64,000 nt of DNA. Source: a virus. A program made the position numbers and the translations under genes. Below, piece after piece: positions 16,395 to 62,842 of the stretch. Positions within the stretch are counted from its first letter, which is position 1. Each line of letters begins with the position of its first letter. The stretch is from positions 79,666 to 143,665 of IMG/VR virus record IMGVR_UViG_3300023184_000038; one strand, written 5' to 3'. Under the pieces are notes generated by a model. The model searched no databases, was not told where the DNA came from, and saw only the letters and a list, made by a program, of their open reading frames with translations.

Positions 16395-16873
16395 TTACTA
16401 CCCTTTTCTTTATATGCCCAACGAGGTCCACCACCGCCGCCACCTGTTTCATTAAACCATGCATTGGATTCAGCTTGAGGTAAAGATTTTAGCCATTTAG
16501 AAAGCACTCCGGCCGCTGGGATCTTTCCATTTTTGTCAACAAATCTAGTGGAAATGACTCCTTTACGATTATCACCTATTTGCGGACTCAGCCAAACGCC
16601 ATTCCACGCAGGTTCCCACATCATTATTTTTGTTGGATTGAATTCCCATTTTGTTGGGGAGAGCGGTCTAAGCAGATACACAGTTCCAGTTCCTCCGGGC
16701 GATGGGTTTGGAATTTCTTTATAATTACCTTTGGGAATTTGAATTGAAGCTTGACCAATCTTGCTTGCAGGGACCATATGGGTCCAGTTACTGGGTACAA
16801 CATCATTACCACTACCTTTAGCAGTAGTTGCGGCAGGTGCTCCCTGAGATGCCAGCCACTCTAGTGGACTCAT
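16391..16873 (-). CDS. Hypothetical protein
   Basis: ATGA overlaps at both ends. Confidence 0.65.
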   Translation of the reverse strand: MSPLEWLASQGAPAATTAKGSGNDVVPSNWTHMVPASKIGQASIQIPKGNYKEIPNPSPGGTGTVYLLRPLSPTKWEFNPTKIMMWEPAWNGVWLSPQIGDNRKGVISTRFVDKNGKIPAAGVLSKWLKSLPQAESNAWFNETGGGGGGPRWAYKEKGSK

Positions 16874-18468
16874 TGTTCATCCTTCATCAGGAACCCTAGT
16901 TTTTTCATGGCTGTCAGATAGGCTCTCCACAATTTATCAGGCCAACCGGTTGGTCGTTCGTAAGTCTTTCCGTCTACGGTTGCACGTTTTGGTAAAGGGC
17001 CAATATCTTGCACTGGATCTCCTGATTTACCCCAGGGCTTGTCGGTTGCTGCAACTGCCAGTGCTGGCAATTGACCAGACATAGCCTTCTCTCTAAGGTC
17101 TTCTATACCATCTATTGTTGCTTTTATATCTACTTTTAAATCGGCATCAGTAGTATCTAGTCCAAAATAACGCACAAGTATAGGCAACTGTTTTTTAATT
17201 ATATCAACATCTTCTTTTGATATAAATCCAGCTGCTACAGCCTGTCCAACTGTACCTGCCTGCCCGGCTCCGCCTTCAGGTCCTCCGCCAGGCACACCGC
17301 CTTCAGGTCCTCCGCCAGGCACACCGCCTTCAGGTCCTCCGCCAGGCACACCGCCTTCAGGTCCTCCGGGAGGTTTATCTTCTGGTTTTTCTTCTTTGTT
17401 ATTCCACCAGTCCCATAATGCTTTACCACCTTCATATGCTCCCCATAAGCCTAATCCCACGCTTCCAGCTTTTCCTAACTTACCAAGACCACTACCAATA
17501 CTACGCATTGGATTACGGGCAGCAGCTGCTGCGGTCCGTCTAGCAGTTGATTGAGCTGTAATTGCTGCCCTTCTAGCTGCCTGGGCTGCTCTATTCCTAG
17601 CGCCGGGACTGCCACCTCGGACTAGTCTACCAAGTCCCCGAACTAACGGAGCAATAAATTCATTTAATTGTTCTGGCTTATTTTCAATTAAAATAGTAAA
17701 AATTCTAATTTGTTCAGCAGGTGAAAATTCATGTAGATTTTCAGATATCAGCCTACGTTTGAGAGTATTTCTACTTTCTGTTGTTACCTTATATTTTTTA
17801 AGAATATTGTTTAATTGAGTCAATGCAGTAGTTAAATCAGCGGCAGGGCCGATATCTTTATCTGCATTTCCTGATTTACCCCTAAGATTGCCCGCTGCTG
17901 CAGCACCTGCTGCACCACCTGCAGTATTTGCACCCGCCTCGGCATCCATTCTATCAGCAATTCGTTCAGCTTGTGCTGCTGCGTCCGGTGCTTGATTTGC
18001 TGTAGTTGATGAATCAGTAGAAGAGTTTCCTGCTTGATTTGGTGTATCTGAGGAATCAGTAGAAGAGTTTCCTGCTTGATTTGGTGTATCTGGGTAAGGT
18101 TCAAACTTGTAAGGGGCAGAGTCAGTGCCGGGCCCAGGATCTTTACCGGCTTGGTTAGTTCCCGAAACACCGCGGCTAGTACCAAACGTTCCAAAATTAG
18201 AAGAAGCATTGTTAGGAGATGTGCTAAATATTGGTTCATCTGGCTTTCCACCAACTACACTCTTAACTGTATTCAAGTTGCTTGTACCAACGTTTAGTTC
18301 TTTTGCTTTTGCTTGATCGTCGGGGTCTTTAAAATAACTTAGTGGAGGCTTTTCACCGGGCATTCTGGCTAAAATATACGGATCTTTACGGTCTGCATTA
18401 CCCAACCATTTTTCTTGTTCGGGAGTAGGAGTCCATTCTTCCCGCAAAATTAATTCATTTATTTTCAT
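16870..18468 (-). CDS. Low-complexity late protein, probable internal head/ejected protein
   Basis: MKINELILREE N-terminus; GATAAATA late box at 18488-95; multiple I/LxE sites; Gly/Ala-rich amphipathic region. Confidence 0.6.
   Translation of the reverse strand: MKINELILREEWTPTPEQEKWLGNADRKDPYILARMPGEKPPLSYFKDPDDQAKAKELNVGTSNLNTVKSVVGGKPDEPIFSTSPNNASSNFGTFGTSRGVSGTNQAGKDPGPGTDSAPYKFEPYPDTPNQAGNSSTDSSDTPNQAGNSSTDSSTTANQAPDAAAQAERIADRMDAEAGANTAGGAAGAAAAGNLRGKSGNADKDIGPAADLTTALTQLNNILKKYKVTTESRNTLKRRLISENLHEFSPAEQIRIFTILIENKPEQLNEFIAPLVRGLGRLVRGGSPGARNRAAQAARRAAITAQSTARRTAAAAARNPMRSIGSGLGKLGKAGSVGLGLWGAYEGGKALWDWWNNKEEKPEDKPPGGPEGGVPGGGPEGGVPGGGPEGGVPGGGPEGGAGQAGTVGQAVAAGFISKEDVDIIKKQLPILVRYFGLDTTDADLKVDIKATIDGIEDLREKAMSGQLPALAVAATDKPWGKSGDPVQDIGPLPKRATVDGKTYERPTGWPDKLWRAYLTAMKKLGFLMKDEQ
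17270..17368 (-). repeat. 27-bp tandem repeat (GGPEGGVPG, ~3.7 copies)
   Basis: ccgccttcaggtcctccgccaggcaca repeated. Confidence 0.95.
18011..18092 (-). repeat. 42-bp tandem duplication (DTPNQAGNSSTDSS x2)
   Basis: gaatcagtagaagagtttcctgcttgatttggtgtatctg occurs twice. Confidence 0.9.
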
Positions 18469-29721: not shown

Positions 29722-29760
29722 GATAAATAGATATGAAGTTAGGGTTCTTCTTAAAAACCC
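29722..29760 (+). repeat. Late promoter/hairpin repeat, copy 1
   Basis: GATAAATAGATATGAAGTTAGGGTTCTTCTTAAAAA, 35/36 identical to 31179-31214. Confidence 0.9.
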
Positions 29761-29778
29761 ACCTTTAAGGAATGTTTA

Positions 29779-31176
29779 ATGTCGGACCAAGATAGAATAC
29801 ATAAAGTAATTTCTATTACAAATACTATAAGTCCAACGTTTTGCTTTGCCAAATGGCATCATTCTACTATATATTTACATACACAAAAAACACATAGTTG
29901 TTATCATCCCGCTCCGCATGCAATTCCCATAACAGAATTAATTGAAAACCCAGCAGCATTGCATAATACGCAACAAAAAAAAAATGAACGCAAATTGATG
30001 CTGGATGGTGTCAGCCCCAATGGGTGCCAATATTGTCAAAACATTGAGGCAATTGGTCCTGACTATATTAGTGACCGGCATATTAAAAATGCAATATATT
30101 ACACTCCCGACCGTCAATTAGAAATTACTAATGGAAATTGGAATAATAATATTAATCCTGCATACATTGAGGTAGCATTTAGCAATGAGTGTAATTTTAA
30201 ATGTGGATATTGTAGTCCAGAGTCTAGTTCTAGTTTTTACAATGAACTTAAAAAATTTGGACCATATTATATGTCAGCCAATCATACACTAAGTTTGGAT
30301 AATACATTTGTTCAAATAGAAAATAAAAATACATACATTGATTCTTGGTGGAAATGGTGGCCGGAAATGTCAACCACTCTTAAAACTCTACGAATTACCG
30401 GAGGTGAACCATTATTACATAAAAGCACATGGAATTTATTTGATAAATTAATAAAAGATCCAAAACCTGAATTAGAGTTAAACTTAAATAGTAACTTTGG
30501 AGTAAAATCTATTATAGTTGACAAATTAATTGAAAACGTAAATTTACTTAAAGAGACTAAATCCATTAAACAATTTAAATTATTTTCTAGCATGGATACA
30601 TGGGGTACTAGGGCCGAATATATCCGTACAGGATTAGACTTAACCTTATGGGAACAGAATCTGGATACTTTTATTAGAAATACCCATTCTGAAGTTTCAA
30701 TAATGTGTACGTTTAATATATTAAGTGTTACTTCATTTATTTCTTTTTTACAAAAAGTATTGGACTGGCGCACTACATATAACTCTATAATTAAGGTTGA
30801 CCGCAGCGGCCGGCCTAATTATAGAAAAATAAGATTTGATACTCCTTATCTAAAAGAACCAATCCAATATGATATGCACCTTTTACCAAAAGAAGAATTT
30901 CTTTATTATTTTGATAATATAGTAGATTTTATCAAGTGTAATCTAGATGAAGAAGATATTACAAAATTTTCAAATATGGAATATGAAAAGTTTCGAAGGG
31001 TGCGTGATTACTTTGCCACAGTACAATACAATACCGATAAACTAGTAGAAGGACGAACGTGCTTTTATAAATGGTTTACAGAATATGACCTTAGAAGAAA
31101 TACTAACTTATTGACAGTATTTCCGGAAATGACAGATTTTTATACACAATGTAAAAATCAAGATAATATCACCTAA
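29779..31176 (+). CDS. Radical SAM protein with N-terminal twitch/SPASM-like domain
   Basis: CFAKW..SCYH..CQYC; CNFKCGYC; ITGGEPLL. Confidence 0.88.
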   Translation: MSDQDRIHKVISITNTISPTFCFAKWHHSTIYLHTQKTHSCYHPAPHAIPITELIENPAALHNTQQKKNERKLMLDGVSPNGCQYCQNIEAIGPDYISDRHIKNAIYYTPDRQLEITNGNWNNNINPAYIEVAFSNECNFKCGYCSPESSSSFYNELKKFGPYYMSANHTLSLDNTFVQIENKNTYIDSWWKWWPEMSTTLKTLRITGGEPLLHKSTWNLFDKLIKDPKPELELNLNSNFGVKSIIVDKLIENVNLLKETKSIKQFKLFSSMDTWGTRAEYIRTGLDLTLWEQNLDTFIRNTHSEVSIMCTFNILSVTSFISFLQKVLDWRTTYNSIIKVDRSGRPNYRKIRFDTPYLKEPIQYDMHLLPKEEFLYYFDNIVDFIKCNLDEEDITKFSNMEYEKFRRVRDYFATVQYNTDKLVEGRTCFYKWFTEYDLRRNTNLLTVFPEMTDFYTQCKNQDNIT

Positions 31177-31178
31177 AT

Positions 31179-31217
31179 GATAAATAGATATGAAGTTAGA
31201 GTTCTTCTTAAAAATTC
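31179..31217 (+). repeat. Late promoter/hairpin repeat, copy 2
   Basis: Matches 29722-29757. Confidence 0.9.
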
Positions 31218-31244
31218 AACACTAACACACACAGAAGAAAAAAT

Positions 31245-31814: not shown

Positions 31815-32069
31815 ATGTCATTACCCGAAGTAAAATTCAACAAAAACGGTTACGAGATTCGTACTCAGATTCTAGATATGGCTAAAGGCCTTATTTCTGA
31901 AGAATATCATTCTAAGTTCAACGGCTGGGAAATGACTGTTGCTAAGGATGAAAAAACTGGCAAGCTAGTTACTACAGTAGGTATGCCTGAATTTCCAGGA
32001 CTTGACAAGGTTTTAGAAACTGCTGAAAAAATGTATGCTTTTGTAAACCAAAATACAACTAAGAAGTAA
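31815..32069 (+). CDS. Conserved hypothetical phage protein
   Basis: NGYEIRTQILDMAK...AEKMYAFV; strong RBS. Confidence 0.7.
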   Translation: MSLPEVKFNKNGYEIRTQILDMAKGLISEEYHSKFNGWEMTVAKDEKTGKLVTTVGMPEFPGLDKVLETAEKMYAFVNQNTTKK

Positions 32070-32082
32070 TTCTTACCAAAAA

Positions 32083-32108
32083 GAATGCCCTATTGATTTA
32101 GGGCATTC
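32083..32108. terminator. Hairpin, probable terminator
   Basis: GAATGCCCTA/TAGGGCATTC 10-bp stem; A-run on the left side. Confidence 0.55.
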
Positions 32109-32113
32109 CTGCC

Positions 32114-32142
32114 TTGACAGTAAATATGGGTTGTGATATACT
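32114..32142 (+). promoter_or_regulatory. sigma70 promoter, divergent relative of the cassette repeat
   Basis: TTGACAGTAAAT..GTGATATACT, 17-bp spacer. Confidence 0.7.
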
Positions 32143-32173
32143 ATACTCTTCATTAATTTGCAAGTAATATGTT

Positions 32174-33565
32174 ATGAAAAATATAATTTTACTAAGTTTA
32201 TTTATTTTAACGGGTTGCGGGGGCGGTGGCGGTTCCGAAGTTGCTGATAAAATAGATCGATTGCCGATATCAACGCAAGTAAAACCGATCGAGACAATAA
32301 ATTTTGCAACAACTGCATGTTCAGTGCCATCCTACAAATACGGCGAGGTACAATTTCCAATAGAATATTTGAATACAACTACGTTAACAATTAATAATTC
32401 TACCCAACGATTACCAAATTCTGTCAATCGGGCCCTGGCTACTAAAGATGATTGGCCTAGTCGAGGTGGTCCTTGGGCCTTTAAGGCTGATTCAGGATGT
32501 AATAACCAATCAACTTATGCTTATAATTTATGGAAAGAAACTCTAACCCGTATTGCCTCTGCAGGTGCTGACAGAGTTTATATATACAATCGTGGTGATT
32601 GGGATGATTTAACAAAATCAGTTTGGACAGGAGTTAATCAAGCAGTATCCAATGAGGAATTAAAATTTATTGTGGATGAGGCTACAAAAAGAAAACTTAA
32701 AGTGTATTATATATGGCAGTTGGCTGACCATGACATAACACCAAATCATAATCGTATTCCTACTTCTGATGAAAATAATACCTTATCTTTAGTTGATTTA
32801 ACTAAATTAATGAATGCATGGCATAAATTATTGTTAGAACAAGCCGCATACGCTAATAAAATTGGTATTTCGGGAATGTCGGTTGATGTAACCTTAAATA
32901 CGTTTATTTCAAGTGAAAATAGAGAGTACTGGGTAACAAAAACAGTTGATATAATAAATGACGTTAGAAAGATATATTTTGGTGAACTTATTTACGGTGC
33001 CGGACGTTCTAGGGTTCCCAACGAACATTTAACTGTTAATATTCTTGATCATAGAATTGTTTCAAAAGTTGATGCGGTAATGATCCCATTGCATATTGAT
33101 ATGAGTACCGTAATGCAACACGATAGTGCCTCATATAAAAATTTAACAATGCAATTTTTAAAAGAGGCAAAAATTGATATAGATAAGCAACTAAACGGAG
33201 TTCCATTTAATGTTCCAATTATATTTGCGGGTCACAAAACTTCCACCAATGAAAATAAAGATATTGAGGATTCATTTTGTGTAGCAGATTATAATTGGAC
33301 TTCCACGACGGTTCAGCTAGAATGTATACAACGGTCTATTTTATCAAATTTTCATAAACAGGCAAACGCAATTCAAGGAATATTTGAGGCTATTATTTCT
33401 CAACTATATTTTACAAATAATTACACGATATTAATTGATGGATATTGGTTTACTGATGATTTAATTCCGGGTAATGATATTCATACAGGGTTTCCTAATT
33501 TATCTAGGTCTATTCGGAATAAACCTGCAGAAAACATAGTTAAAAATTGGTTTTCCAAAGGTTGA
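32174..33565 (+). CDS. Lipoprotein with probable TIM-barrel glycoside-hydrolase-like domain
   Basis: Lipobox LTGC then GGGGGS; LKFIVDEATKRKLKV, INDVRKIYFGELIY, IRNKPAENIVKNWF resemble GH113-type barrels. Confidence 0.55.
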   Translation: MKNIILLSLFILTGCGGGGGSEVADKIDRLPISTQVKPIETINFATTACSVPSYKYGEVQFPIEYLNTTTLTINNSTQRLPNSVNRALATKDDWPSRGGPWAFKADSGCNNQSTYAYNLWKETLTRIASAGADRVYIYNRGDWDDLTKSVWTGVNQAVSNEELKFIVDEATKRKLKVYYIWQLADHDITPNHNRIPTSDENNTLSLVDLTKLMNAWHKLLLEQAAYANKIGISGMSVDVTLNTFISSENREYWVTKTVDIINDVRKIYFGELIYGAGRSRVPNEHLTVNILDHRIVSKVDAVMIPLHIDMSTVMQHDSASYKNLTMQFLKEAKIDIDKQLNGVPFNVPIIFAGHKTSTNENKDIEDSFCVADYNWTSTTVQLECIQRSILSNFHKQANAIQGIFEAIISQLYFTNNYTILIDGYWFTDDLIPGNDIHTGFPNLSRSIRNKPAENIVKNWFSKG

Positions 33566-33622
33566 CATTAAATGGATTTGGTGATATAATAGAGTCTTAG
33601 TCAGTAAAGAAAAGGAAATAAA

Positions 33623-33853
33623 ATGCAAGTAGGAACACTTATCAAGTCTTTTGACTTCCCCGGAAATCTAAACTGCTACATGATTGGTACCGTTACAAAG
33701 GTCGTAGATGACCTCATTACATGCGTAACTATACGTCAAGTATTTGACGGTAAGGCATTACCCCTTGAAGAATTCAATAAGGAATTCCGTACAGGGGTGC
33801 AGGGCTCTGGTATGTTTGACGACAAGTTTGAACGTGTCATAATCTTAGGTTGA
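33623..33853 (+). CDS. Cassette hypothetical protein
   Basis: Between promoter repeats; stop TGA lies inside next TTGACA. Confidence 0.75.
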   Translation: MQVGTLIKSFDFPGNLNCYMIGTVTKVVDDLITCVTIRQVFDGKALPLEEFNKEFRTGVQGSGMFDDKFERVIILG

Positions 33854-33911
33854 CATTAAATGGTTTTGGGTGTATAATAGACTCTTAAACAGTTAATTAA
33901 TGGACAGTATT

Positions 33912-34166
33912 ATGCAACAGACATACCTCTATTTCACACCGGAATTTGTCAAGGAAGTCCTGCAGATGCACGATTTCCATTGTGTCTTTGAACTGGATGC
34001 ACCCGATCACATCTTTGCCAGGCTGATGACAGCCGAGTTCTACTCAACCCGAGATGTCCGTGAACGTGAGGCTGAGTTTAAACAATGCTGGGCACTAAGC
34101 GAGATATACTGCCCACACGAAGGCATTGACCGTCGTAGCGAATACGGAATAGAGACCGTAGGTTGA
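33912..34166 (+). CDS. Cassette hypothetical protein
   Basis: Between promoter repeats; visibly higher GC; stop inside next TTGACA. Confidence 0.7.
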   Translation: MQQTYLYFTPEFVKEVLQMHDFHCVFELDAPDHIFARLMTAEFYSTRDVREREAEFKQCWALSEIYCPHEGIDRRSEYGIETVG

Positions 34167-34224
34167 CATTAAATGGATTTTGTGATATAATAGATACTTA
34201 GACAGTTAATTAAAGGACTACACA

Positions 34225-34491
34225 ATGGCTAAAAAAATCTCTATCAAAGTTTTCGCAGATCCAAGTCATGCATGGGCCCGCTTCCCTAAATCACATTTGG
34301 TAGCACTTGGTATTGAGAATAAGATTTCTACTTACAGTTACCAAAACGGCACTAATGCTTTCTTGGAAGAAGACTGTGATTTGCCAGTACTGGTTAACGC
34401 ACTCCGGCAGCGTGGATATGAAATTAAATTCAACGAAAGCCATGCTAATAAGCAAAGCAAAATCCGCAATTACTCTACATACCGGGCTTGA
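34225..34491 (+). CDS. Cassette hypothetical protein (DPSHAW...LEEDCD family)
   Basis: Between promoter repeats; stop inside next TTGACA. Confidence 0.75.
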   Translation: MAKKISIKVFADPSHAWARFPKSHLVALGIENKISTYSYQNGTNAFLEEDCDLPVLVNALRQRGYEIKFNESHANKQSKIRNYSTYRA

Positions 34492-34549
34492 CATTAAATA
34501 GGTTTTGTGATATAATAGACTCTTAAACAGTTAATTAAAGGACATTGAA

Positions 34550-34834
34550 ATGACTAAGCAAGATTACACAATGTATATTTACAAAGCAGACAAGCGCACC
34601 AAAACTGGCGAACGTTTGTTCTCGACCACTGTTTGGGTGGCACGTTCCGAAAAAGGTATGCGGCAAGAGTGCAACGAACTCTACAACTTGTACCCTGCTA
34701 CCAAAGGCTGGCGTTTTGAATATGTGCCTACAATGAAAACTGTACGTAACTTGATGTCCGGAGTTGATATCCAAATTCCACACGACACTCCCTGGGCTTG
34801 TAATCCTTCTAGCGAAACTTATTGGTCAACTTAA
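34550..34834 (+). CDS. Cassette hypothetical protein
   Basis: After fourth repeat; C-terminal TPWACNPSSETYWS. Confidence 0.75.
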   Translation: MTKQDYTMYIYKADKRTKTGERLFSTTVWVARSEKGMRQECNELYNLYPATKGWRFEYVPTMKTVRNLMSGVDIQIPHDTPWACNPSSETYWST

Positions 34835-34844
34835 GGAAAATAAA

Positions 34845-35528
34845 ATGGCACGTACCCCAGTATCTACTTTTTCATACCCCTCAGAATTGGTTTGGGCAGC
34901 AGCCGCAGCCGCACATAGGGTAGTTGGTACTTATATTAAAGTTAGTTCACCAATCGGTACTGAATCATCGGATAATAAGCAGTCTCCGGCTAAGCCACTG
35001 GCAGTCGCAGTTGTTCAGTCTAACCGTACCATAATGGAAAAGTTTATTGCAGAGAAATCTGTAACTGATGCTGACCTGGAAGAAGGTGAAAAAATTCGTA
35101 AATTTTTTCAGGGGTTGACTTTTCAAATTCTTAAAGGTAAAGTGTTATCCGATTTTGACAATAACGCCCTGGCAATAAGTTGCCGAGACACCATTACGTC
35201 TAATTATGAATTGGCAGTAATTGCTAGTTTGCCTGCAGGATATGAACGTGGGCAAAAAAGAGCAAATATTCAAGGTCGCATTGACTTTGCTAAGGGCGGA
35301 TTTATTGCTAAAGTGGGAGATAAGATTACTCTTAATATTGAAGTGCTTAAATCTGTATACTCTCAACAATGGGGAGTTTTTTACAGTACTGCAATTACTG
35401 ATAATGACCAAGTACTTTTCTTCAGTTACAAAACTGAATTAGCGGCTGGTGCTTTTATTAAAATATCGTGTACAGTTAAGGCTCACCGGGACAATTTAAC
35501 TCAACTTAACCGTGTAAAAATTCTTTAA
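34845..35528 (+). CDS. Hypothetical protein with probable C-terminal OB fold
   Basis: ATG 34845 with AAGGA RBS; GDKITLNIEV...TVKAH..TQLNRVK. Confidence 0.55.
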   Translation: MARTPVSTFSYPSELVWAAAAAAHRVVGTYIKVSSPIGTESSDNKQSPAKPLAVAVVQSNRTIMEKFIAEKSVTDADLEEGEKIRKFFQGLTFQILKGKVLSDFDNNALAISCRDTITSNYELAVIASLPAGYERGQKRANIQGRIDFAKGGFIAKVGDKITLNIEVLKSVYSQQWGVFYSTAITDNDQVLFFSYKTELAAGAFIKISCTVKAHRDNLTQLNRVKIL

Positions 35529-35543
35529 TTTTAAAGATAATCA

Positions 35544-35678
35544 ATGAATGAACAATTAAGAAAACTAGTAGAACGAGCCGGCGCGCCTGCTGATGTACTA
35601 AATGAAATTTGGTTTCATATATTTTGTCAAAAGTTTGCCAATCTGTTACTTGCTGAAATGGAAGATGATTTTAAATGA
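35544..35678 (+). CDS. Divergent MNE(R/Q)..KFA family micro-protein (44 aa)
   Basis: MNEQLRKLVERAG...QKFANLLL; resembles the 53733-54354 paralogs. Confidence 0.5.
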   Translation: MNEQLRKLVERAGAPADVLNEIWFHIFCQKFANLLLAEMEDDFK

Positions 35679-35762
35679 ATTCTACTTTAGCGTATCGGAT
35701 TGAGATATTTCTTGTTATGTTTGTAACAATATTTTTTACTTTAATTTATATGGGAGTTTTTT

Positions 35763-35924
35763 ATGAAAAATAATATACTGTATTACAGTTTGGGTATGTT
35801 ACTATTGACCTTCATTACAGGATGTAGTACAATAGCAGGTACAGTGCATGGAATAGGAGATGATGTTAAATCAGGAACTGAAACATTGTCCGGTTGGATC
35901 AAACCCTCTAAACAAGCAAAATAA
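35763..35924 (+). CDS. Entericidin (EcnA/B)-like lipoprotein (53 aa, not in ORF track)
   Basis: Lipobox ITGC then STIAGTVHGIGDDVKSG amphipathic helix. Confidence 0.6.
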   Translation: MKNNILYYSLGMLLLTFITGCSTIAGTVHGIGDDVKSGTETLSGWIKPSKQAK

Positions 35925-35925
35925 T

Positions 35926-36051
35926 ATGAATTTTATTAGTGGATTAATTATTGGTATCATTATTGCTACCGTGGGTATTAGTGGTTTGGCCAACATTGCA
36001 GATAGGGCAGTTGATAAAACCAAAGTAATACTCAAGGAACATATTAAATAA
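35926..36051 (+). CDS. Small membrane protein
   Basis: MNFISGLIIGIIIATVG hydrophobic helix. Confidence 0.55.
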   Translation: MNFISGLIIGIIIATVGISGLANIADRAVDKTKVILKEHIK

Positions 36052-36057
36052 TGTTAT

Positions 36058-36294
36058 ATGTTAAGATTTTTACCTGTGATTATAAAACCACTAGCGGTGA
36101 TTCTATTCGTGTCAATTCTAGTAGTACAGTGGGTAAAAGTAGATAATTCCAAATATGATGATAGTGATTTTATTTCAATTGTTTACCAATGTTCAGAATT
36201 AAATAAATATGACCATGTGCCTAGGCAAGTAGATATAGAATGTGAATTTCGTAGAGAAAACAAACAGCGTAACTTAAAGAAAGTAGTACCATGA
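36058..36294 (+). CDS. Membrane-anchored hypothetical protein
   Basis: N-terminal TM helix, Cys pair. Confidence 0.55.
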   Translation: MLRFLPVIIKPLAVILFVSILVVQWVKVDNSKYDDSDFISIVYQCSELNKYDHVPRQVDIECEFRRENKQRNLKKVVP

Positions 36295-37631
36295 GCGCAA
36301 GTTGGATTAATAAATTAAATGAATCAGATAGCCGTTTACATAAGCAAAACGTAATTGCACAGGCGCTATCAGCGAGTGTCCTTGGTAGTACTAACGCAAC
36401 TAATTTTTTGATGCTGGCAAAGGCCTGTTATAATCCATATGTAACATATGGTGTTAAACAAATTTCAAATACAGTTGGAATTGTTGGAACTAAAAATCCA
36501 TGGGAAGATTTTGTAGACCTATTGGAAAATCTTAGTTTACGCAAAATTACTGGCAATGCTGCCCGTGATGCTATTCAAGACCTTGCAGAACAATTTGATA
36601 GTGAAGAATGGAATACATTTTTGGCTCCGGTATTACGCCGAGACCTTCGTGCAGGACTTACTGAAAATACAATTAATAAAATTTGTAAAAACACAAAATT
36701 TGAAATTCCAGTATTTAGTTGTCAACTTGCAACTAATTGTGAGGGGCGCCCTGAGATGAAGGGCATCAAACGTCTTGAACCCAAACTAGATGGTGTTCGT
36801 ATGTTATTGATGGTTATCCCAGGTGCTAGTGAAGGATTGACTACGATCTGTTTTAGTCGTAACGGTAAAACTTTTGAAAACTTCACTCATATTGAAGATC
36901 AGATTCGTGATAATTGGCTTAAACTAGTTCGCAAAGCCGCAACTACTAGTAATTTAAGTATGGGGTTTGTACTTGACGGTGAAGTGATTGGTAATAGTTT
37001 CCAAGAACTGATGCGACAAGCACGCCGTAAAACAGGTGTACAAGCAGAGGATAGTGTCTACAATGTGTTTGACATTTTGCCACTAGAGGCTTTCCGTGAA
37101 GGTCATTGGAATACACAACTAGAAAAACGTATTAGAATTCTTGATGATATGCGTCCCATCATTGATACCATGCCTAACGTTGAACTCTTGCCACATATTA
37201 TGGTTGACTTAGATACAGCCGCAGGTAAAGATCAACTTGAACGTTATGCTAAGGATAATGTTAATGCCGGATTTGAAGGCATTATGATTAAAGAAATGGA
37301 AGCCCCTTATATCTGTAAGCGGTCAACAGATTGGATGAAATGGAAGCCTACAATTACAGTAGATTTAGAAGTTGTTGGTATGGAGGAAGGCACTGGCCGA
37401 AATGTTGGAAGATTGGGTGCATTAATTTGCAGTGGAATTGATGATGGTAAAGAAATAACAGTCAATGTTGGCAGTGGATTTAGTGATAAAGACCGAGATG
37501 ATTATTATCTCAATCGTAATATTATACTTGGACGCACTGCCGAAGTGATGTGCGATATTATTACACAAAATAGTGACGGTACATATTCTTTACGTTTTCC
37601 GCGTTTTGTTAGATTTCGTGATGATAAATGA
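36291..37631 (+). CDS. ATP-dependent DNA ligase
   Basis: EPKLDGVR, VLDGEV, FDIL, EGIMIK, KWK, VGSGF, SLRFPRF..FRDDK. Confidence 0.96.
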   Translation: MSASWINKLNESDSRLHKQNVIAQALSASVLGSTNATNFLMLAKACYNPYVTYGVKQISNTVGIVGTKNPWEDFVDLLENLSLRKITGNAARDAIQDLAEQFDSEEWNTFLAPVLRRDLRAGLTENTINKICKNTKFEIPVFSCQLATNCEGRPEMKGIKRLEPKLDGVRMLLMVIPGASEGLTTICFSRNGKTFENFTHIEDQIRDNWLKLVRKAATTSNLSMGFVLDGEVIGNSFQELMRQARRKTGVQAEDSVYNVFDILPLEAFREGHWNTQLEKRIRILDDMRPIIDTMPNVELLPHIMVDLDTAAGKDQLERYAKDNVNAGFEGIMIKEMEAPYICKRSTDWMKWKPTITVDLEVVGMEEGTGRNVGRLGALICSGIDDGKEITVNVGSGFSDKDRDDYYLNRNIILGRTAEVMCDIITQNSDGTYSLRFPRFVRFRDDK

Positions 37632-43505: not shown

Positions 43506-43579
43506 TAAATACATATTGTAATACGCCGATGGTCGGGTATTACATAAAATCATCTTGCTTAATAAAGGAGAAAACGATG
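43506..43579 (+). promoter_or_regulatory. Late promoter plus ROSE-like structured leader of dnaK
   Basis: ATAAATA; TGTAATAC-GCCGATGGTCGG-GTATTACA; CATCTTGCTT pairs with AAGGAG..GATG. Confidence 0.6.
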
Positions 43580-45451
43580 AGCAAAGTTATAGGTATCGAT
43601 TTAGGTACAACAAATTCATGTGTAGCAATAATTGAAAATGGCGCTACAAAAATAATTGAAAATTCTGAAGGAAACCGTACTACACCAAGTATAGTAGCAT
43701 ATGCCAATGGTGAGATTTTAGTAGGAGCTTCCGCAAAAAGACAAGCGGTAACTAATCCCAAAAATACTATCTATGCTAGTAAACGACTAATTGGTCGTAA
43801 ATTTAAAGAAGATGCTGTTCAAAAAGATATCAATTTAATGCCCTACAAAATTGTTGCGGCAGATAATGGTGATGCTTGGGTAGAAGTCAATGACGATAAA
43901 TTGGCTCCGCCTCAAATCTCAGCAGAGGTTCTTCGTAAAATGAAAAAAACGGCTGAGGATTATTTGGGTGAAACAGTAACTCAAGCCGTTATCACTGTTC
44001 CAGCATACTTTAATGATAGTCAACGACAAGCAACTAAAGACGCAGGAAAAATTGCAGGACTAGAGGTGCTACGAATTATCAATGAACCAACTGCGGCAGC
44101 ACTAGCCTACGGTATGGATAAAGAAGATAAACGTGACCGCAAAATTGCAGTTTATGATTTAGGTGGTGGTACATTTGACGTAAGCATTATTGAAATTGCT
44201 AATGTAGATAATGATAAACAAATTGAGGTTCTCTCAACTAACGGTGATACCTTCTTAGGCGGTGAAGATTTTGACCAGCGTATTATGGATTATCTAGTAG
44301 ATGAATTCAAGAAAGATACTGGGGTCGACCTGAAAAAAGATGTATTAGCATTACAACGATTAAAAGAAGCGGCTGAAAAAGCCAAAATAGAATTATCTAG
44401 TTCGGTACAAACTGATGTTAATTTGCCATATATTACAGCAGATGCTAGTGGACCTAAGCATATGAATGTAAAACTTACTAGAAGTAAATTAGAACAACTA
44501 GTAGAAGAATTAATTCAACGCAGTATTGGTCCGTGCAAAATTGCAATGGCTGATGCAAAGGTTACCACAACTGATATTGATGAAGTTATTTTGGTTGGTG
44601 GTATGACTCGTATGCCAAAAGTACAAGAAGTTGTTGAAAAATTGTTTGGAAAAGCTCCTCGTAAAGATGTTAATCCAGATGAGGCTGTAGCCGCTGGCGC
44701 TGCTATTCAAGGTGATGTATTGGGAGGAGGAAGGACTGATGTTTTACTATTAGATGTTACTCCGTTAAGTTTGGGCATTGAAACTATGGGCGGAATTATG
44801 TCTAAATTAATTCAAAAAAATACTACTATTCCCACAAAGGCATCACAAACATTTTCAACTGCTGAAGATAATCAACCGGCCGTTACTGTTAAAGCATTTC
44901 AAGGAGAACGTGAGTTAGTTCAACACAATAAATTATTGGGAGAGTTTAATTTAGAAGGTATTGCACCAGCTAGACGCGGCCAACCCCAAATTGAAATTGC
45001 GTTTGATATTGATGCTAATGGTATTATGCATGTAAGTGCTAAAGATAAAAACACCGGTAAAGAAAACAAAATCACTATTAAATCTAATAGCGGGTTAAGT
45101 GAAGCCGAGATTCAAACCATGATCAAAGATGCGGAACTCAACGCTGAAGAAGACAAAAAACAACGTGAATTGATTGAGGCACGTAATAACGCTGAGTCAT
45201 CATTACACCAAGTTAAAGAAGATATAGACAAATACAGCGAATTGATTAGTCCTGAAGAAAAAACCAACATTGATGATACTGTGCAGGCTATTAAAGATGC
45301 TATCACGGGAACAGATGTTAAAATTATCACTGATAGTATTCCTAAATTATATGAGGCAATGAAGCCGCTTATTGCTAAAAAACATGAGGCTGAAGAAAAA
45401 TCTAAAAATAAAGAAGATACTACAGTAGTTGATGCTGAAATTGTATCATAA
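43577..45451 (+). CDS. dnaK: Chaperone DnaK (Hsp70)
   Basis: [41 protein letters not shown]. Confidence 0.98.
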
Positions 45452-50606: not shown

Positions 50607-51649
50607 TGGATTGCGCTAGACTTGAGCATTTTGCCAAACTTAGTCCGCCATGGCGCGGATTTGCTTCAACTGCTGTAATTAGTGGATGTTGTGTTATGGT
50701 CAGTCCCCCGTTTTTTTCTAGTTATAGTGAAATGATAAGCAGTCAATGGTTAAAAAATATAAAAGATTCATTTAAAGAAAATAAATTTCCGCGTGAATGT
50801 ATTCGATGCCAACAAAAAGAAGAAATTAATATATGCAGCGATAGGATGCTTTATAATGAAGATATGAAAAGGCAAACTAATACTGACTATCTAACTGTAG
50901 ATTTAATGTTAGATAATATTTGTAATACGGCATGCCAATTTTGTAGTCCAGCTGTTAGCACTAAAATAGGTTCACTTGTATCTTCTAATTATGAAATAAA
51001 AAATGTTTCTCCGTATTTTAATGATAAAGTATTGCCCATTGACAGAATAACTAGATTAGACTTCACTGGCGGGGAACCAAGTAATAGTAAAAATATAAAA
51101 AAAGTATTAAAAAGTTTGCCACCTAATGTAAAATCAATTAGAGTCAATACTAATTGTACTTCATTTATGGATGAGTTAATTCCTACAGCTGAAACAGGTA
51201 TCTCTATTAACATTACTATAAGTTTGGATGGAGTAGGAAAGGTACAAGAATATATGAGATGGCCCACCAATTGGAACATTTTTTATGATGTTTTAGAAAA
51301 ATATAAAAAATTTGCAAGTAATTATAGTTCAGTTAATATCCATTTATATACCACACTTACTGCATTAAATGTTTATGATTTTGATAATATTATAAACTTT
51401 GCAAAAGAACATAGTATTGGTCATAGTTTTAATAATATAGCTGTACCCAAAGCCTTGTTGATAACCACTGTAAATTCATTTACTTTAGCAGCTAAACAAA
51501 AATTTGCTAAAGAAGAAAATCCAATTTTGAATTCTTTTTCTAAACTAATTGCTAGTGGAAATAACAATCAACTTGAGTTTGATATGTTTGTTAAGGACCA
51601 AGATTTTTTAAGAAAAATCAATATAAGAGACTACATAACTTACGGTTGA
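50606..51649 (+). CDS. Radical SAM protein
   Basis: CNTACQFC, FTGGEP, ISLDG; N-terminal GCC..CIRC. Confidence 0.85.
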   Translation: MDCARLEHFAKLSPPWRGFASTAVISGCCVMVSPPFFSSYSEMISSQWLKNIKDSFKENKFPRECIRCQQKEEINICSDRMLYNEDMKRQTNTDYLTVDLMLDNICNTACQFCSPAVSTKIGSLVSSNYEIKNVSPYFNDKVLPIDRITRLDFTGGEPSNSKNIKKVLKSLPPNVKSIRVNTNCTSFMDELIPTAETGISINITISLDGVGKVQEYMRWPTNWNIFYDVLEKYKKFASNYSSVNIHLYTTLTALNVYDFDNIINFAKEHSIGHSFNNIAVPKALLITTVNSFTLAAKQKFAKEENPILNSFSKLIASGNNNQLEFDMFVKDQDFLRKINIRDYITYG

Positions 51650-51708
51650 CATTAAATGGTTTTGGTGATATAATAGACTCTTAAACAGTTAATCACTAGG
51701 AGTTAATT

Positions 51709-51966
51709 ATGAAAGCATTGCAAGCATACATTGACCAAAAGAATCGTTGGAATTCGTTGTTCAAAGGTCCACAGTTTGAAATTAAAACTGCACAAGGTCG
51801 TCAGGAAGTTGCTAACAGTTTAGACGCTGCCCTCAGCCCTGAAAATCTCTCTTGCGACGGTGAACTGCCACGCAGTCAGGTTCAGGCTAAGTATCGTCAA
51901 TTGTCACAAGTTGTAAAAGAACTCCAAAAACTGGATTCTACAGTGAAATTTTGCGAGTTTGCTTAA
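51709..51966 (+). CDS. Cassette hypothetical protein
   Basis: LSPENLSCDGE motif; AGGAG RBS. Confidence 0.75.
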   Translation: MKALQAYIDQKNRWNSLFKGPQFEIKTAQGRQEVANSLDAALSPENLSCDGELPRSQVQAKYRQLSQVVKELQKLDSTVKFCEFA

Positions 51967-52039
51967 GGCCTAGAGGCTTGACATTAAATGGTGTTTGTGA
52001 TATAATAGACACTTAGACAGTAAACAAACGGAGTCTTTT

Positions 52040-52378
52040 ATGATGATTGAAACAGAAACTAATCACAAGTCTGCAGGTCAATTTGCTTGGTTCGCTGAAC
52101 GTGACGCTAGAATGCGTAGTGCAGTTAATCGTTATTTGTTTACTCAGCTACAACAACTTCGGGCTGAACAAGTGAAATTGGGACTAGAAATGGTTTATAG
52201 TGCTGCTAGAGTTTACATTGAATTTCGTAAAACATTTATCAGTGTTAAAGTAGATCATCCCACAGTGCGAGATCGTAAGAACCTAGCAATGCTAGAAACT
52301 TGCTACAAAACCGAAAATTTTGAAAAAGGCAAAACAGCACAGGGAATTACCTATCGTCTGTTTCGTAAACGTAAATAG
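52040..52378 (+). CDS. Cassette hypothetical protein
   Basis: Between repeats. Confidence 0.7.
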   Translation: MMIETETNHKSAGQFAWFAERDARMRSAVNRYLFTQLQQLRAEQVKLGLEMVYSAARVYIEFRKTFISVKVDHPTVRDRKNLAMLETCYKTENFEKGKTAQGITYRLFRKRK

Positions 52379-52403
52379 ACTTGACATTAAAAACAAAACG
52401 AAA

Positions 52404-52568
52404 ATGTCTTATATTCAACAAGCAATCCGCGAATGGGTTTGGATCGTAGGCGCAGAACGGCAGGATCAGCAATGGCTCCTGACAGACTACGATACATGGG
52501 AACCCAATCCGCACTATCACGGTCCTGATCAGGGTCATCCCGAGGATTACTACGATTATGCAGCTTGA
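52404..52568 (+). CDS. Cassette hypothetical protein (54 aa)
   Basis: WLLTDYDTWEPNPHYHGP..HPE; stop inside next TTGACA. Confidence 0.7.
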   Translation: MSYIQQAIREWVWIVGAERQDQQWLLTDYDTWEPNPHYHGPDQGHPEDYYDYAA

Positions 52569-52626
52569 CATTAAATGGTTTTGGTGATATAATAGACACT
52601 TAGACAGTTACTTAAAGGACTAAAAA

Positions 52627-52899
52627 ATGCGTACAAAAACTATCATTGACGGCTTGAAAAATTCTCAGAAATTCCGTGTAATTTTCAAGGGTGATGGCAG
52701 TGAAAACGACATTGGCATGTATATGTCTATCCAGCAAATGACTGAAATGTTTGCTACAGTTAATGCCCGAGTATTGTGCTGGGACGCACTTTTGCAATTG
52801 GGTCGTATGCGGTATTTTGCTCAAAAAGACGGCAATCCTGTTCCGTCAGGTCTTGGCACTACTATCCGCGGTAAACAAATTCAAGTTGATCTTGTTTAA
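52627..52899 (+). CDS. Cassette hypothetical protein
   Basis: Between repeats. Confidence 0.7.
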   Translation: MRTKTIIDGLKNSQKFRVIFKGDGSENDIGMYMSIQQMTEMFATVNARVLCWDALLQLGRMRYFAQKDGNPVPSGLGTTIRGKQIQVDLV

Positions 52900-52964
52900 G
52901 GTTGACATTAAATGGTTTTGGGTGTATAATACATACTTAGACAGTTAACAAACAGGAGTAAGTT

Positions 52965-53204
52965 ATGCAAGTTTACCAACTTATTGAGCAATTAGAGTAC
53001 TTGGATCCTAATGCTGAAGTCCACTTCTCTTACAACTACGGCGATCACTGGCACACCCAAGTTGCTCCAACTGTGGACCAAGTGTCTACGGGTGTGGTAA
53101 AGTACAGTGCCTACCACAGCATGGACAAGCTGATGGACGAAAACGAAATGTACGAAGATGAGGGCGACTTTGAAGGTACTCGCCGTGTGGTAGTAATCGG
53201 TTGA
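52965..53204 (+). CDS. Cassette hypothetical acidic protein
   Basis: Between repeats; stop inside next TTGACA. Confidence 0.75.
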   Translation: MQVYQLIEQLEYLDPNAEVHFSYNYGDHWHTQVAPTVDQVSTGVVKYSAYHSMDKLMDENEMYEDEGDFEGTRRVVVIG

Positions 53205-53263
53205 CATTAAATGGTTTTGGTGATATAATAGAATCTTAAACAGTTAATTACAGGAGTTAGAAA

Positions 53264-53731
53264 ATGGGTACACGTTCACGAATTGGTGTCATGCATGGTG
53301 ACAAACTGAAAAGCGTTTACTGTCATTGGGATGGTTATCTACAACACAATGGTCTCATCCTGCAAAATCATTATGATAGTGCTAAGGCAAATCATTTGGT
53401 TTCGCTCGGTTACATATCTAGTCTAAGAGAAGAAATTGGTGTAGAACATCCCTTCAGTCAGTTTGATGTTACCCCAAACTTGTCTCAAGCCGAGTACTAC
53501 GAAAAGTACGACAAGATGACTACCTTCTATGGTCGTGATCGTAAAGAAACTGATACAGATTTTACTGTGGATCAAACGTTTGAAGAATTTTTGAGCAAGG
53601 ATTACGATTACGAATACTATTACATCATGCGTGATGGTGTGTGGTATGTTGGTGTTGCATATGCAACTGACAACATGGTCCCAGGACAACTGTATGTCTT
53701 GTCTGAAAAATTGACTATGGTAGAGGCATAA
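53264..53731 (+). CDS. Conserved phage protein (MGTRS...YCHWDGY family)
   Basis: After last repeat; CAGGAG RBS. Confidence 0.75.
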   Translation: MGTRSRIGVMHGDKLKSVYCHWDGYLQHNGLILQNHYDSAKANHLVSLGYISSLREEIGVEHPFSQFDVTPNLSQAEYYEKYDKMTTFYGRDRKETDTDFTVDQTFEEFLSKDYDYEYYYIMRDGVWYVGVAYATDNMVPGQLYVLSEKLTMVEA

Positions 53732-53732: not shown

Positions 53733-53939
53733 ATGAACGAACGAATTACACTACTTGCTCTCAAAGCATCAAACCCAAAGACTGGTTGGCTTGACCGTCA
53801 GAAGTTCGCCGAGTTGATTGTGCGGGAATGTAAAGAGAACTTTGCTAAAGTTTGGTATGAACAAGGTTTGGATATTCGTGGTGCAGAACTAGGTAGGTTT
53901 ATGACACGGTTTGAACAACATTTCGGAGTGAAAGAATGA
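53733..53939 (+). CDS. MNERI..KFAELIV..HFGV family micro-protein, copy 1
   Basis: Three conserved blocks shared with the next two ORFs. Confidence 0.75.
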   Translation: MNERITLLALKASNPKTGWLDRQKFAELIVRECKENFAKVWYEQGLDIRGAELGRFMTRFEQHFGVKE

Positions 53940-54124
53940 ACGAACGAATTAAAGAAATAATGTTTCAGTCTGGATTGGGCTATATGAGCAGTGCCCATCC
54001 AATTCTTGTAGAAAAGTTCGCCGAGTTGATTGTCAGGGAATGTATGTGTATTTCTGATAGTATCGGTGAGCATGGGTATATCGCTGCTGAAGAAATGGGA
54101 AAACATTTCGGAGTTGAAGAATGA
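53936..54124 (+). CDS. MNERI family micro-protein, copy 2
   Basis: ATGA-coupled paralog. Confidence 0.75.
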   Translation: MNERIKEIMFQSGLGYMSSAHPILVEKFAELIVRECMCISDSIGEHGYIAAEEMGKHFGVEE

Positions 54125-54551: not shown

Positions 54552-54557
54552 AGAATA

Positions 54558-62775: not shown

Positions 62776-62842
62776 ATTAAAATTAATATAATTATTATGA
62801 ATATAATACCGGCGATGACTGCGGGTAATCTCATTATATTTA

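What the first reader, a model, noticed from the sequence alone, without database searches (positions are those of the whole stretch)
33560..34834. Integron-like array of one-gene cassettes delimited by a promoter repeat whose -35 box supplies the upstream stop codon
Seen: a ~45-bp repeat (TTGACA-17-TATAAT plus conserved CTTA.ACAGTTAA) every ~290-325 bp, each followed by an RBS and one small unrelated ORF. All four upstream genes end on the TGA inside TTGACA (stops 33565, 33853, 34166, 34491), and across both arrays 7 of 10 do. Spacer bases are conserved beyond what promoter function needs. Established: promoter-containing repeats (PeSL-type) mediate modular shuffling in T4-like phages. Inference: recombination between repeats captures, excises and reorders host-takeover or anti-defence genes, with the repeat providing promoter, stop codon and crossover homology. 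Caveat: stop/-35 overlap also occurs at non-repeat promoters (40517, 55764), so compaction contributes.
Basis: partly seen in the sequence, partly recalled or inferred. Interest (0 to 1): 0.78.

Follow-up and report, generated by a model that had tools for sequence, protein, structure and literature searches.

The report
Shuffling early-promoter gene cassettes, T4-like jumbo phage
An uncultured T4-related giant phage puts the same strong promoter-plus-leader repeat in front of each of many small unknown genes, and related phages have swapped, replaced and moved these one-gene units by crossing over inside the repeats, which is a mostly hairpin-less variant of the known "PeSL" cassettes and not an integron.

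Summary
Four ~58-nt repeats lie at 33559, 33847, 34160 and 34485. Each is a perfect TTGACA-17-TATAAT promoter with a conserved leader and SD, followed by one small ORFan. All four upstream genes stop on the TGA inside TTGACA.

The contig is a fragment (CheckV: 41% complete) of a ~350-kb T4-type jumbo phage. It holds 14 such repeats, and more than 119 IMG/VR contigs carry the motif.

The shuffling inference is supported. In three large relatives the same four syntenic arrays hold different cassettes. Families such as the 88-aa gene at 34225-34491 sit in different arrays in different genomes. In close relatives (90-98% identity) the replacement breakpoints fall inside the repeats.

"Integron-like" is not supported: there is no integrase or resolvase, no attC-like fold, and every cassette has its own promoter. 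A RecA/UvsX-like gene is present in the relatives.

The closest known system is the PeSL of T4-type phages (PMC2839356, PMC4122927). Here most copies, including all four in the finding, lack the stem-loop. A minority keep one around the -35 box, and its 3' arm is the conserved spacer.

The stop in the -35 box is far commoner than chance (45 of 113 independent upstream genes; frame bias 58:17:12). Compaction explains it best.

This scan has already noted PeSL-like arrays in other jumbo phages. Cassette functions remain unknown.

The parts
32083..32108 (+). Stem-loop at the head of the array (8-10 bp GCCC/GGGC stem). It lies between the stop of the conserved 84-aa gene and the first promoter.
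   Evidence: -16.7 kcal/mol, z -5.1. An equivalent hairpin with different loop bases is present in relative L072.
32114..32143 (+). Head promoter, a looser family variant (TTGACAGTAAAT...TATACT, 11/12) that drives the 463-aa gene.
   Evidence: The homology between G000 and L072/L010 breaks inside this promoter.
32174..33565 (+). 463-aa lineage-specific gene with no family match. It ends on the TGA of the next -35 box.
   Evidence: It is absent from five large relatives and present only in the 98%-identical L128/L056.
33559..33616 (+). Repeat 1: -35 at 33562-33567, -10 at 33585-33590, then leader and SD.
   Evidence: No hairpin (z +0.5).
33623..33853 (+). Cassette ORF, 76 aa, ORFan. Stop is the TGA of repeat 2.
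   Evidence: 80%-identical homologs occur in three other contigs.
33847..33904 (+). Repeat 2: -35 at 33850, -10 at 33873-33878.
   Evidence: It is the left edge of the divergent two-cassette patch against L128 and of the block shared with L036.
33900..34166 (+). Cassette ORF, 88 aa (probably 84 aa from the ATG at 33913), ORFan. Stop is the TGA of repeat 3.
   Evidence: It is 87.5% identical in L128, while its neighbours there are 97-100% identical. It is 94% identical in L036/L014/L037/L107, where it lies in another array.
34160..34217 (+). Repeat 3: -35 at 34163, -10 at 34186-34191.
   Evidence: The crossover with L072 maps between -35 and -10.
34225..34491 (+). Cassette ORF, 88 aa (family c7), a widespread viral hypothetical protein. 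Stop is the TGA of repeat 4.
   Evidence: It sits in array L here, array R in G001, array A in G003/G002 and array B in L036.
34485..34542 (+). Repeat 4: -35 at 34488, -10 at 34511-34516.
   Evidence: It is the right edge of the shared or divergent two-cassette block.
34550..34834 (+). Cassette ORF, 94 aa. It has its own TAA stop and is followed 10 nt later by the conserved gene.
   Evidence: Only partial (36-aa) similarity to the 'c3' cassettes of relatives.
34845..35528 (+). Conserved 227-aa anchor gene (F1) on the right side of the array. DNA ligase follows at 36291-37631.
   Evidence: F1, F2, F3 and the ligase are syntenic in G001-G004.
51643..53731 (+). Second array (R). Five full repeats have -35 boxes at 51646, 51978, 52565, 52902 and 53201. 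One truncated scar copy lies at 52381-52405. The cassettes are 85, 112, 54, 90, 79 and 155 aa.
   Evidence: Families c4 and c8 from this array sit in array L in other genomes.

Best explanation
The repeats are the strong early promoters of an uncultured T4-type jumbo phage, read by the host sigma-70 polymerase. Each is fused to a conserved, unstructured leader with an SD. They head one-gene modules packed into hyperplastic islands between conserved genes.

The roughly 30-nt promoter core is about 83% identical in every copy, so it offers portable homology. General homologous recombination between copies then replaces, deletes, inserts and relocates whole cassettes. The relatives encode a RecA/UvsX-like protein that could do this. 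Crossovers can occur within a genome or between co-infecting relatives. Each junction leaves a seamless hybrid promoter, so the moved gene stays expressed. The leader travels with the downstream gene.

This works like the PeSL cassettes of T4-type phages. Most copies, however, have lost the 5' arm of the stem-loop to the upstream coding sequence. The conserved spacer (GGTTTTGGGT-type) is the surviving 3' arm.

The TGA of the -35 box becomes the upstream gene's stop through short deletions that remove the intergenic spacer. Because TTGACA is held fixed by promoter function, that stop is then stable.

Shown here: the repeats, the stops, the variable content, the breakpoints and the absence of site-specific recombinases. 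Inferred: promoter activity and timing, the recombination pathway, and any circular intermediate.
For: (1) Repeat anatomy and significance. G000 holds 14 family copies, all co-oriented with the genes. There are 20-30 loose pattern matches per relative.

(2) Conserved flanks with variable content. Between anchors F17 and F1/ligase, G000 has a 463-aa gene plus 4 cassettes, G001 has 3, G003 has 2, and G002/G004 have 3. Most of these proteins are unrelated to one another.

(3) Movement between arrays by full-length homologs. Family c7 is in array L (G000), R (G001), A (G003/G002) and B (L036). Family c4 is in R (G000), L (G001, L072, L010/L059) and B (G003/G002). Family c8 is in R (G000) and L (G003/G002).

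(4) Breakpoints lie in the repeats.
- L034 is 98% identical to G000, but one ORF is replaced exactly from the SD to 12 nt before the next -35.
- The L072 junctions fall inside the -35/spacer and give a hybrid promoter.
- A 684-nt two-cassette block (G000 113512-114194) is 92% identical in L036, in a different array, while the flanks there are about 73% identical.
- Mismatches between G000 and L128 are concentrated in 33885-34435, the same block.

(5) Some cassettes are more alike than the core genes. Family c7 is 86% identical between G000 and G003, and c14 is 98%. The core median is 71% and its 95th percentile is 84%.

(6) The leader is inherited with the downstream gene. Downstream 22 nt are 0.68 identical for orthologous cassettes against 0.53 otherwise. 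The promoter core is equally conserved everywhere, at 0.81-0.84. The cores also carry genome-specific signatures.

(7) Recombinases. A RecA-like gene is present in G001-G003. No integrase or resolvase is found.

(8) T4-type Gp23 is present in the relatives. PeSL recombination is documented experimentally in T4-type phages (PMC2839356, PMC4122927).

(9) Stop/-35 overlap. It occurs in 167 of 472 copies and in 45 of 113 dereplicated upstream-gene clusters, with a frame bias of 58:17:12. The c4 comparison shows a deletion between GCTT microhomologies.

(10) Stem-loop. It is absent from the four copies in the finding and from the family on average. Where an intergenic gap exists, 24% of copies have a stem of 7 bp or more, with compensatory arm changes. 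The copy at G000 15948 has 15 bp, -21.1 kcal/mol and z -5.5.
Against: No experiment backs this: promoter activity, early timing and the recombination pathway are all inferred from sequence.

Genes abut the repeats, so any viable gene-sized indel must end in or next to a repeat. Coincidence of breakpoints with repeats is therefore partly forced.

All relatives are metagenome assemblies, so strain chimeras at repeats cannot be fully excluded. Against that, the same arrangements recur in contigs from different samples. Identical stretches are also 47 nt or shorter, below the k-mer sizes assemblers commonly use (the assembly settings of these contigs were not checked).

The within-genome homogenisation signal is weak overall (0.834 against 0.812 identity).

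The RecA-like gene was not found in the G000 fragment itself, which is 41% complete.

The 'c3' family link for the 94-aa cassette rests on only 36 aligned residues.
Confidence: 0.8

Rival explanations
1. These are ordinary compact early-gene clusters. The repeats are only promoters that selection for expression keeps alike. The cassette differences arose by unrelated gene gain and loss (illegitimate recombination, divergence beyond recognition). Breakpoints look repeat-associated only because the whole intergenic space is promoter.
For: Genes abut the repeats, with most stops within 8 nt of the -35 or inside it. Gene-sized indels must therefore end there. The motif is conserved in contigs that share almost no other nucleotide similarity with these genomes, which argues for functional constraint. 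Stop/-35 overlap also occurs at non-family promoters.
Against: Junctions are seamless hybrid promoters without truncated genes or duplications. The same full-length cassette families turn up in different arrays. A two-cassette block is 92% identical while its flanks are about 73% identical. A single ORF is swapped between 98%-identical genomes. Only one scar copy was seen.
Confidence: 0.12
2. This is a site-specific, integron-like system. A dedicated recombinase recognises a conserved part of the repeat, such as CTTAGACAGTTAA or the spacer, and captures or excises the cassettes.
For: Positions outside the -35 and -10 boxes are conserved. The units are one gene long and regularly spaced.
Against: No Phage_integrase or Resolvase domain is found in G000-G003, including the 100%-complete G001, while the control genomes ring. 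The repeats of the finding have no attC-like fold. Crossover points differ between events: SD, -35/spacer, spacer/-10. Every cassette has its own promoter. Other recombinase classes, and the homing endonucleases common in T4-like phages, were not searched.
Confidence: 0.04
3. The apparent shuffling is an artefact. Metagenome contigs were mis-joined at the shared repeats between co-occurring strains.
For: All comparison genomes are IMG/VR metagenome assemblies. Repeats are classic places for chimeric joins.
Against: Identical stretches are 47 nt or shorter. The same non-G000 arrangements recur in independent samples: c4 in array L in L010, L059 and L072, and the 88-aa gene at 33900-34166 plus c7 in array B in L014, L036, L037 and L107. 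The moved cassettes are diverged orthologs (63-92% identity), not identical copies pasted from a co-assembled strain.
Confidence: 0.04

Closest known systems
PeSL (promoter-early stem-loop) mobile regulatory cassettes of T4-type phages RB49/phi1, T4/PST and KVP40/nt-1 (Arbiol et al. 2010, PMC2839356; Comeau et al. 2014, PMC4122927)
   Same: Both have near-consensus sigma-70 early promoters with an SD, repeated between small ORFan genes in hyperplastic regions of a T4-type genome. In both, relatives differ by insertion, deletion, replacement and displacement of ORFs, with crossovers inside the repeats. A minority of copies here carry a stem-loop overlapping the -35, which is one of the described PeSL subclasses. 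The array head also has a GCCC-loop-GGGC hairpin.
   Different: The four repeats of the finding, and most of the family, have no stem-loop and no terminator between cassettes. The upstream stop codon lies inside the -35 hexamer rather than in an AT-rich region upstream of it. The leader is strongly conserved (CTTAGACAGTTAA-type). The host genome is an uncultured phage of about 350 kb. Mini-circles have not been shown here.
Integrons (IntI integrase, attI/attC sites, Pc promoter)
   Same: Both are arrays of single-gene cassettes bounded by a repeated element, with variable content between conserved flanks.
   Different: Here there is no integrase and no folded attC-like site. Cassettes carry their own promoters rather than sharing one Pc. 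Crossover positions are variable, which fits homologous rather than site-specific recombination.
T-even internal-protein (IP) loci and T4 early promoters with extended consensus (as discussed in PMC2839356)
   Same: Both show conserved early-promoter-based repeats flanking highly variable small genes, with promoter conservation beyond the two hexamers.
   Different: The T-even elements use the T4-type early consensus and AT-rich stem-loops, and they are confined to two small loci. Here at least four arrays exchange cassettes with one another.

Membership tests
PeSL cassettes of T4-type phages | Strong sigma-70-like early promoter (TTGACA-N17-TATAAT or close to it) followed by an SD and the start codon of the downstream gene | tested here: met
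   All four copies score 12/12 with a 17-nt spacer, and an SD and ATG follow 30-35 nt downstream. Promoter activity itself was not tested.
PeSL cassettes of T4-type phages | Stable stem-loop (terminator or attenuator) within or next to the promoter | tested here: not met
   The four repeats of the finding fold no better than shuffles (z +0.45 to +1.03). The family mean is z -0.6, and no terminator-like site lies between the cassettes. The feature is met only in a minority of family copies (for example G000 15948, z -5.5) and at the array head, 32083-32108.
PeSL cassettes of T4-type phages | Located in hyperplastic regions of small ORFan genes between conserved core blocks of a T4-type genome | tested here: met
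   Conserved anchors flank variable cassettes. The cassettes have no Pfam or PHROG family. The relatives encode Gp23 at E about 1e-99.
PeSL cassettes of T4-type phages | Relatives differ by indels, replacements or displacements whose junctions lie inside the repeats | tested here: met
PeSL cassettes of T4-type phages | Excised mini-circles formed by recombination between neighbouring repeats | not testable with these tools
   This needs raw reads or inverse PCR on infected cultures.
Integron | IntI-type tyrosine recombinase next to the array | tested here: not met
   PF00589 finds nothing in G000-G003 while all 14 control genomes ring. PF00239 also finds nothing.
Integron | attC sites: imperfect inverted repeats that fold as single strands at the 3' end of each cassette | tested here: not met
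   The four repeats have no significant fold. The element is a direct repeat located 5' of each gene.
Integron | Promoterless cassettes expressed from a common Pc | tested here: not met
   Each cassette has its own consensus promoter.

The most novel reading that the evidence does not exclude
The repeat may be a self-contained 'gene socket' kept by selection for exchangeability across a whole clade of uncultured T4-type jumbo phages. In this reading it has a fixed in-frame stop in the -35 box, closure of the other two frames within the leader, a promoter, and a portable leader/SD. Cassettes would then circulate as small circles or by co-infection among at least four arrays and between lineages, forming a recombinase-free functional analogue of an integron for early (possibly counter-defence) genes.
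Probability: 0.2. Interest if true: 0.6.

Novelty: new variant of a known kind. Interest (0 to 1): 0.38.

Why it matters
The result extends PeSL-type modular shuffling from a few cultured T4-like phages to a large uncultured clade of roughly 350-kb relatives, with more than 119 IMG/VR contigs carrying the motif. It shows cassettes hopping between four separate arrays. It offers an explanation for why the promoter spacer is conserved: it is the remnant 3' arm of a stem-loop. It also documents a strong, non-random use of the -35 TGA as a stop codon, which is a neat example of regulatory and coding overlap under compaction. On the practical side, the arrays mark where to look for fast-turnover early genes in these phages. 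This is not a new principle, and this scan has already noted similar arrays in other jumbo phages.

Tried and rejected
- Megablast of 32000-36000 against cultured phage genomes found no match. The ligase is at most 37% identical to any cultured phage, with Bacillus and Lysinibacillus phages on top, so no cultured close relative is available.
- Pfam and PHROGs on nine cassette proteins gave nothing above threshold. A weak CHIPS-like hit for the 112-aa protein (E 6.5e-4, below cut-off) was disregarded.
- The ESM Atlas for the 88-aa c7 protein returned only viral hypothetical clusters.
- An AlphaFold model of c7 had mean pLDDT 68. Foldseek against the PDB gave no match at E <= 0.001, so the top rows (MutS fragments, designed barrels) were treated as noise.
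- The idea that the leader pairs with the SD (ACTCTT with AAGGAGT) was dropped. Leaders are unstructured (mean MFE -2.45 kcal/mol, z +0.3).
- The idea that the repeat's stops in all three frames are a used feature was dropped. Stops inside the leader serve only about 12 of 472 copies and 3 of 113 clusters.
- A general concerted-evolution test gave only a small excess of within-genome identity. The genome-specific signatures at a few positions are clearer.
- The first ViennaRNA batch timed out and was rerun on a smaller sample.
- The scan's notes on this genome concern other features, and a look-up by sequence found nothing.
Full report
**What is in the sequence.**
- The window is bases 79666-143665 of a 143,665-bp IMG/VR viral contig that CheckV rates 41% complete.
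- The repeat finder gives nine copies of one repeat family in two arrays, all on the + strand. One array is at 33559-34562 and the other at 51643-53275.
- Each copy is a perfect TTGACA-17-TATAAT promoter. It has a conserved spacer (ATTAAATGG.TTT.G..) and a conserved downstream segment (A.A..CTTA.ACAGTTAA..AAAGGA). An ATG follows 30-35 nt after the -10.
- A 47-nt consensus with up to 3 mismatches hits five times, against zero expected.
- Over the whole contig there are 21 perfect TTGACA-N16-18-TATAAT sites on the + strand and none on the - strand.
- Fourteen family copies are present. These form a third array at contig positions 15359-16187 and one solitary copy.

**What organism.**
- The window encodes Hsp70, an ATP-dependent DNA ligase and radical-SAM proteins.
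- No cultured phage is close.
- The exact motif occurs in more than 119 IMG/VR contigs. Four of these are large: G001 (348.7 kb, 100% complete), G002, G003 and G004.
- Their ligase is 63-77% identical to the window's. Core proteins have a median identity to G000 of 66-71%.
- These relatives encode a T4-type Gp23 capsid protein (E about 1e-99) and a RecA/UvsX-like protein.
- They encode no tyrosine integrase or serine resolvase.
- The phage is therefore an uncultured T4-type jumbo myovirus.

**Comparison of the array with relatives.**
- The flanks of the array in the finding are conserved. On the left is a run of small genes ending in an 84-aa gene (F17). On the right is a 227-aa gene (F1), then F2, F3 and the ligase.
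- Between these anchors G000 has a 463-aa gene plus four cassettes. G001 has three cassettes, G003 has two, and G002/G004 have three. Nearly all of these proteins are unrelated to one another.
- I fetched G001, G002 and G003 whole. I then catalogued every family promoter with its downstream ORF.
- The promoters fall into four syntenic arrays:
 - L: the array of the finding.
 - R: the second array in the window, anchored by a radical-SAM gene, the 155-aa gene c6 and a 281-aa gene.
 - A: ends in a 342-aa gene.
 - B: ends in 368-aa and 428-aa genes.
- Full-length cassette families occupy different arrays in different genomes:

| Family | Window coordinates | Array by genome |
|---|---|---|
| c7 | 34225-34491 | L in G000; R in G001; A in G003 and G002 |
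| c4 | 51709-51966 | R in G000; L in G001, L072 and L010/L059; B in G003 and G002 |
| c8 | 52040-52378 | R in G000; L in G003 and G002 |

- Order and content are not fixed.

**Where the breakpoints are.**
- L034. It is 98% identical to G000 over 7 kb. One 81-aa ORF is replaced by an unrelated one. Identity is lost at the SD of the leader and regained 12 nt before the next -35.
- L072. It is 85-96% identical to G000 upstream of the array. It has c4 where G000 has the 463-aa, 76-aa and 88-aa genes. The left junction is inside the first promoter. [quoted passage not shown]
- L036, L014, L037 and L107. These share a 652-684-nt block with G000 at 91-92% identity. The block is the second and third cassettes of the finding, from the start of repeat 2 into repeat 4. 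In L036 it sits in array B, while the flanks there are about 73% identical to G000.
- L128. It is otherwise 98% identical to G000. Its mismatches are concentrated in 33885-34435, which is the same two-cassette block.
- Independent samples. The contigs that share an arrangement come from different samples. This argues against assembly chimeras.

**How it most likely works.**
- The promoter core is equally conserved in every comparison (0.81-0.84 identity). The 22 nt downstream are more alike between orthologous cassettes (0.68) than otherwise (0.53).
- The leader therefore travels with the downstream gene, and the core is the shared homology.
- Each genome also stamps its own signature on the cores:
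 - G000: GG before the -35 and GTGA before TATAAT.
 - G001: AT before the -35 and an A at position 7.
 - G003/G002: GGTA before TATAAT.
- This pattern is expected if incoming cassettes acquire the resident half of a promoter, or if copies are homogenised within a genome.
- No site-specific recombinase was found, and a RecA-like gene is present. I therefore infer general homologous recombination between repeats, within a genome or between co-infecting relatives.
- That mechanism has been shown experimentally for the PeSLs of T4-type phages, including mini-circle formation (PMC2839356; PMC4122927).
- Some cassettes are more similar between genomes than the core genes are. c7 is 86% identical and c14 is 98%, against a core 95th percentile of 84%. 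This suggests exchange between lineages.

**The stem-loop question.**
- PeSLs are defined by a promoter plus a stem-loop.
- The four repeats of the finding do not fold (z +0.45 to +1.03). No terminator-like site lies between the cassettes. The leaders are unstructured.
- A subset of family copies does have a stem whose loop holds the -35 box. The 5' arm lies upstream and the 3' arm is the conserved spacer.
- The arm sequences differ between copies in a compensatory way. Examples are ACACCCAATAC with GTATTGGGTGT, and ATACCCAAAG with CTTTGGGTAT.
- A stem of 7 bp or more occurs in 9% of copies, against 4.6% in a swapped-partner control. Where the upstream gene ends more than 12 nt away, the figure is 24%.
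- The copy at contig position 15948 has a 15-bp stem of -21.1 kcal/mol (z -5.5). The array head has a GCCC/GGGC hairpin at 32083-32108 (z -5.1).
- My reading is that the ancestral unit was a full PeSL. In most copies the upstream coding sequence has overrun the 5' arm. This is an inference.

**The stop codon in the -35 box.**
- Among 472 family copies in all fetched DNA, 167 have the upstream gene ending on the TTGACA TGA. Most of the others stop 4-8 nt upstream.
- I dereplicated these to 113 upstream-gene clusters. Of these, 45 use the TGA.
- Among clusters that stop within 12 nt, the TGA frame outnumbers the other two frames 58:17:12. My own chi-square on these counts is about 44.
- The overlap is therefore real and non-random.
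- The terminal residue follows the genome's promoter flank in c7: Ala from GCT in G000 and G003, and Ile from ATT in G001.
- In c4 the same terminal Ala is kept with either stop. G000 reads GCTTAA...GGCTTGACA and G003 reads GCTTGACA. The two differ by a deletion between GCTT microhomologies.
- Compaction, with the -35 TGA as an end state that promoter function keeps fixed, explains this best.
- Stops that the leader offers in the other two frames are rarely used.

**What it is not, and what remains unknown.**
- It fails all three integron criteria that I tested: integrase, attC fold and a shared Pc.
- The cassette proteins have no family, atlas or fold match. An anti-defence or host-takeover role is only a guess from their position and early-type promoters.
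- Promoter activity, timing and circular intermediates are untested.

**Verdict.**
- The feature is real and well supported, and the shuffling inference holds.
- It is a mostly hairpin-less, maximally compacted variant of a known system in a new clade, not a new principle.
- This scan has already recorded similar PeSL-like arrays in other jumbo phages. I did not test those records.

Noticed in passing
window 29722-29768 and 31179-31225, flanking the ORF at 29779-31176: A 465-aa radical-SAM-like gene lies exactly between two 47-nt direct repeats that are 87% identical and begin GATAAATAGATATGAAGTTAG, which resembles a T4 late promoter. In G003 the neighbouring genes F28 and F16 are adjacent without this gene. 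A second class of regulatory repeat may therefore also bound gene insertions.
   Followed up: partly
window 52381-52405: A truncated family repeat (ACTTGACATTAAAAAC...) keeps the -35 but has no -10, and is joined directly to a leader-like AACAAAACGAAAATG. It heads a 54-aa ORF that ends on the next -35 TGA. It looks like an internal-deletion scar of a promoter copy.
   Followed up: partly
window 53797-54575: Just after array R lies a run of small genes spaced about 185-230 nt apart. They share repeated starts (ATTTCGGAGTTGAAGAATGAACGAACGAAT) and an internal 34-nt repeat. This is a tandem paralogous small-gene family without family promoters.
   Followed up: no
window 62822-63703, - strand gene 62843-63802: Six tandem copies of a 144-nt unit (65-81% identical) lie inside a 319-aa minus-strand ORF, giving a repeat-domain protein.
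   Followed up: no
window 17243-17373, inside the - strand gene 16870-18468: Four tandem 27-nt repeats (CCGCCTTCAGGTCCTCCGCCAGGCACA) lie inside a 532-aa minus-strand ORF. Further 42-nt and 72-nt tandem duplications lie nearby, at 17989-18072 and 15190-15333.
   Followed up: no
window 43529-45451: A full-length Hsp70/DnaK homolog (Pfam HSP70, E 2.8e-256) is encoded by the phage.
   Followed up: no
G003:C1:125541-126311: The RecA/UvsX-like gene of relative G003 lies about 1.8 kb upstream of its longest promoter-cassette array (array A, 128140-131358).
   Followed up: no
window 33900-33915: The annotated ATG at 33900 of the second cassette sits where the other copies have the AAAGGAC SD (here AATGGAC). 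The ATG at 33913 is the likelier start, giving 84 aa.
   Followed up: partly
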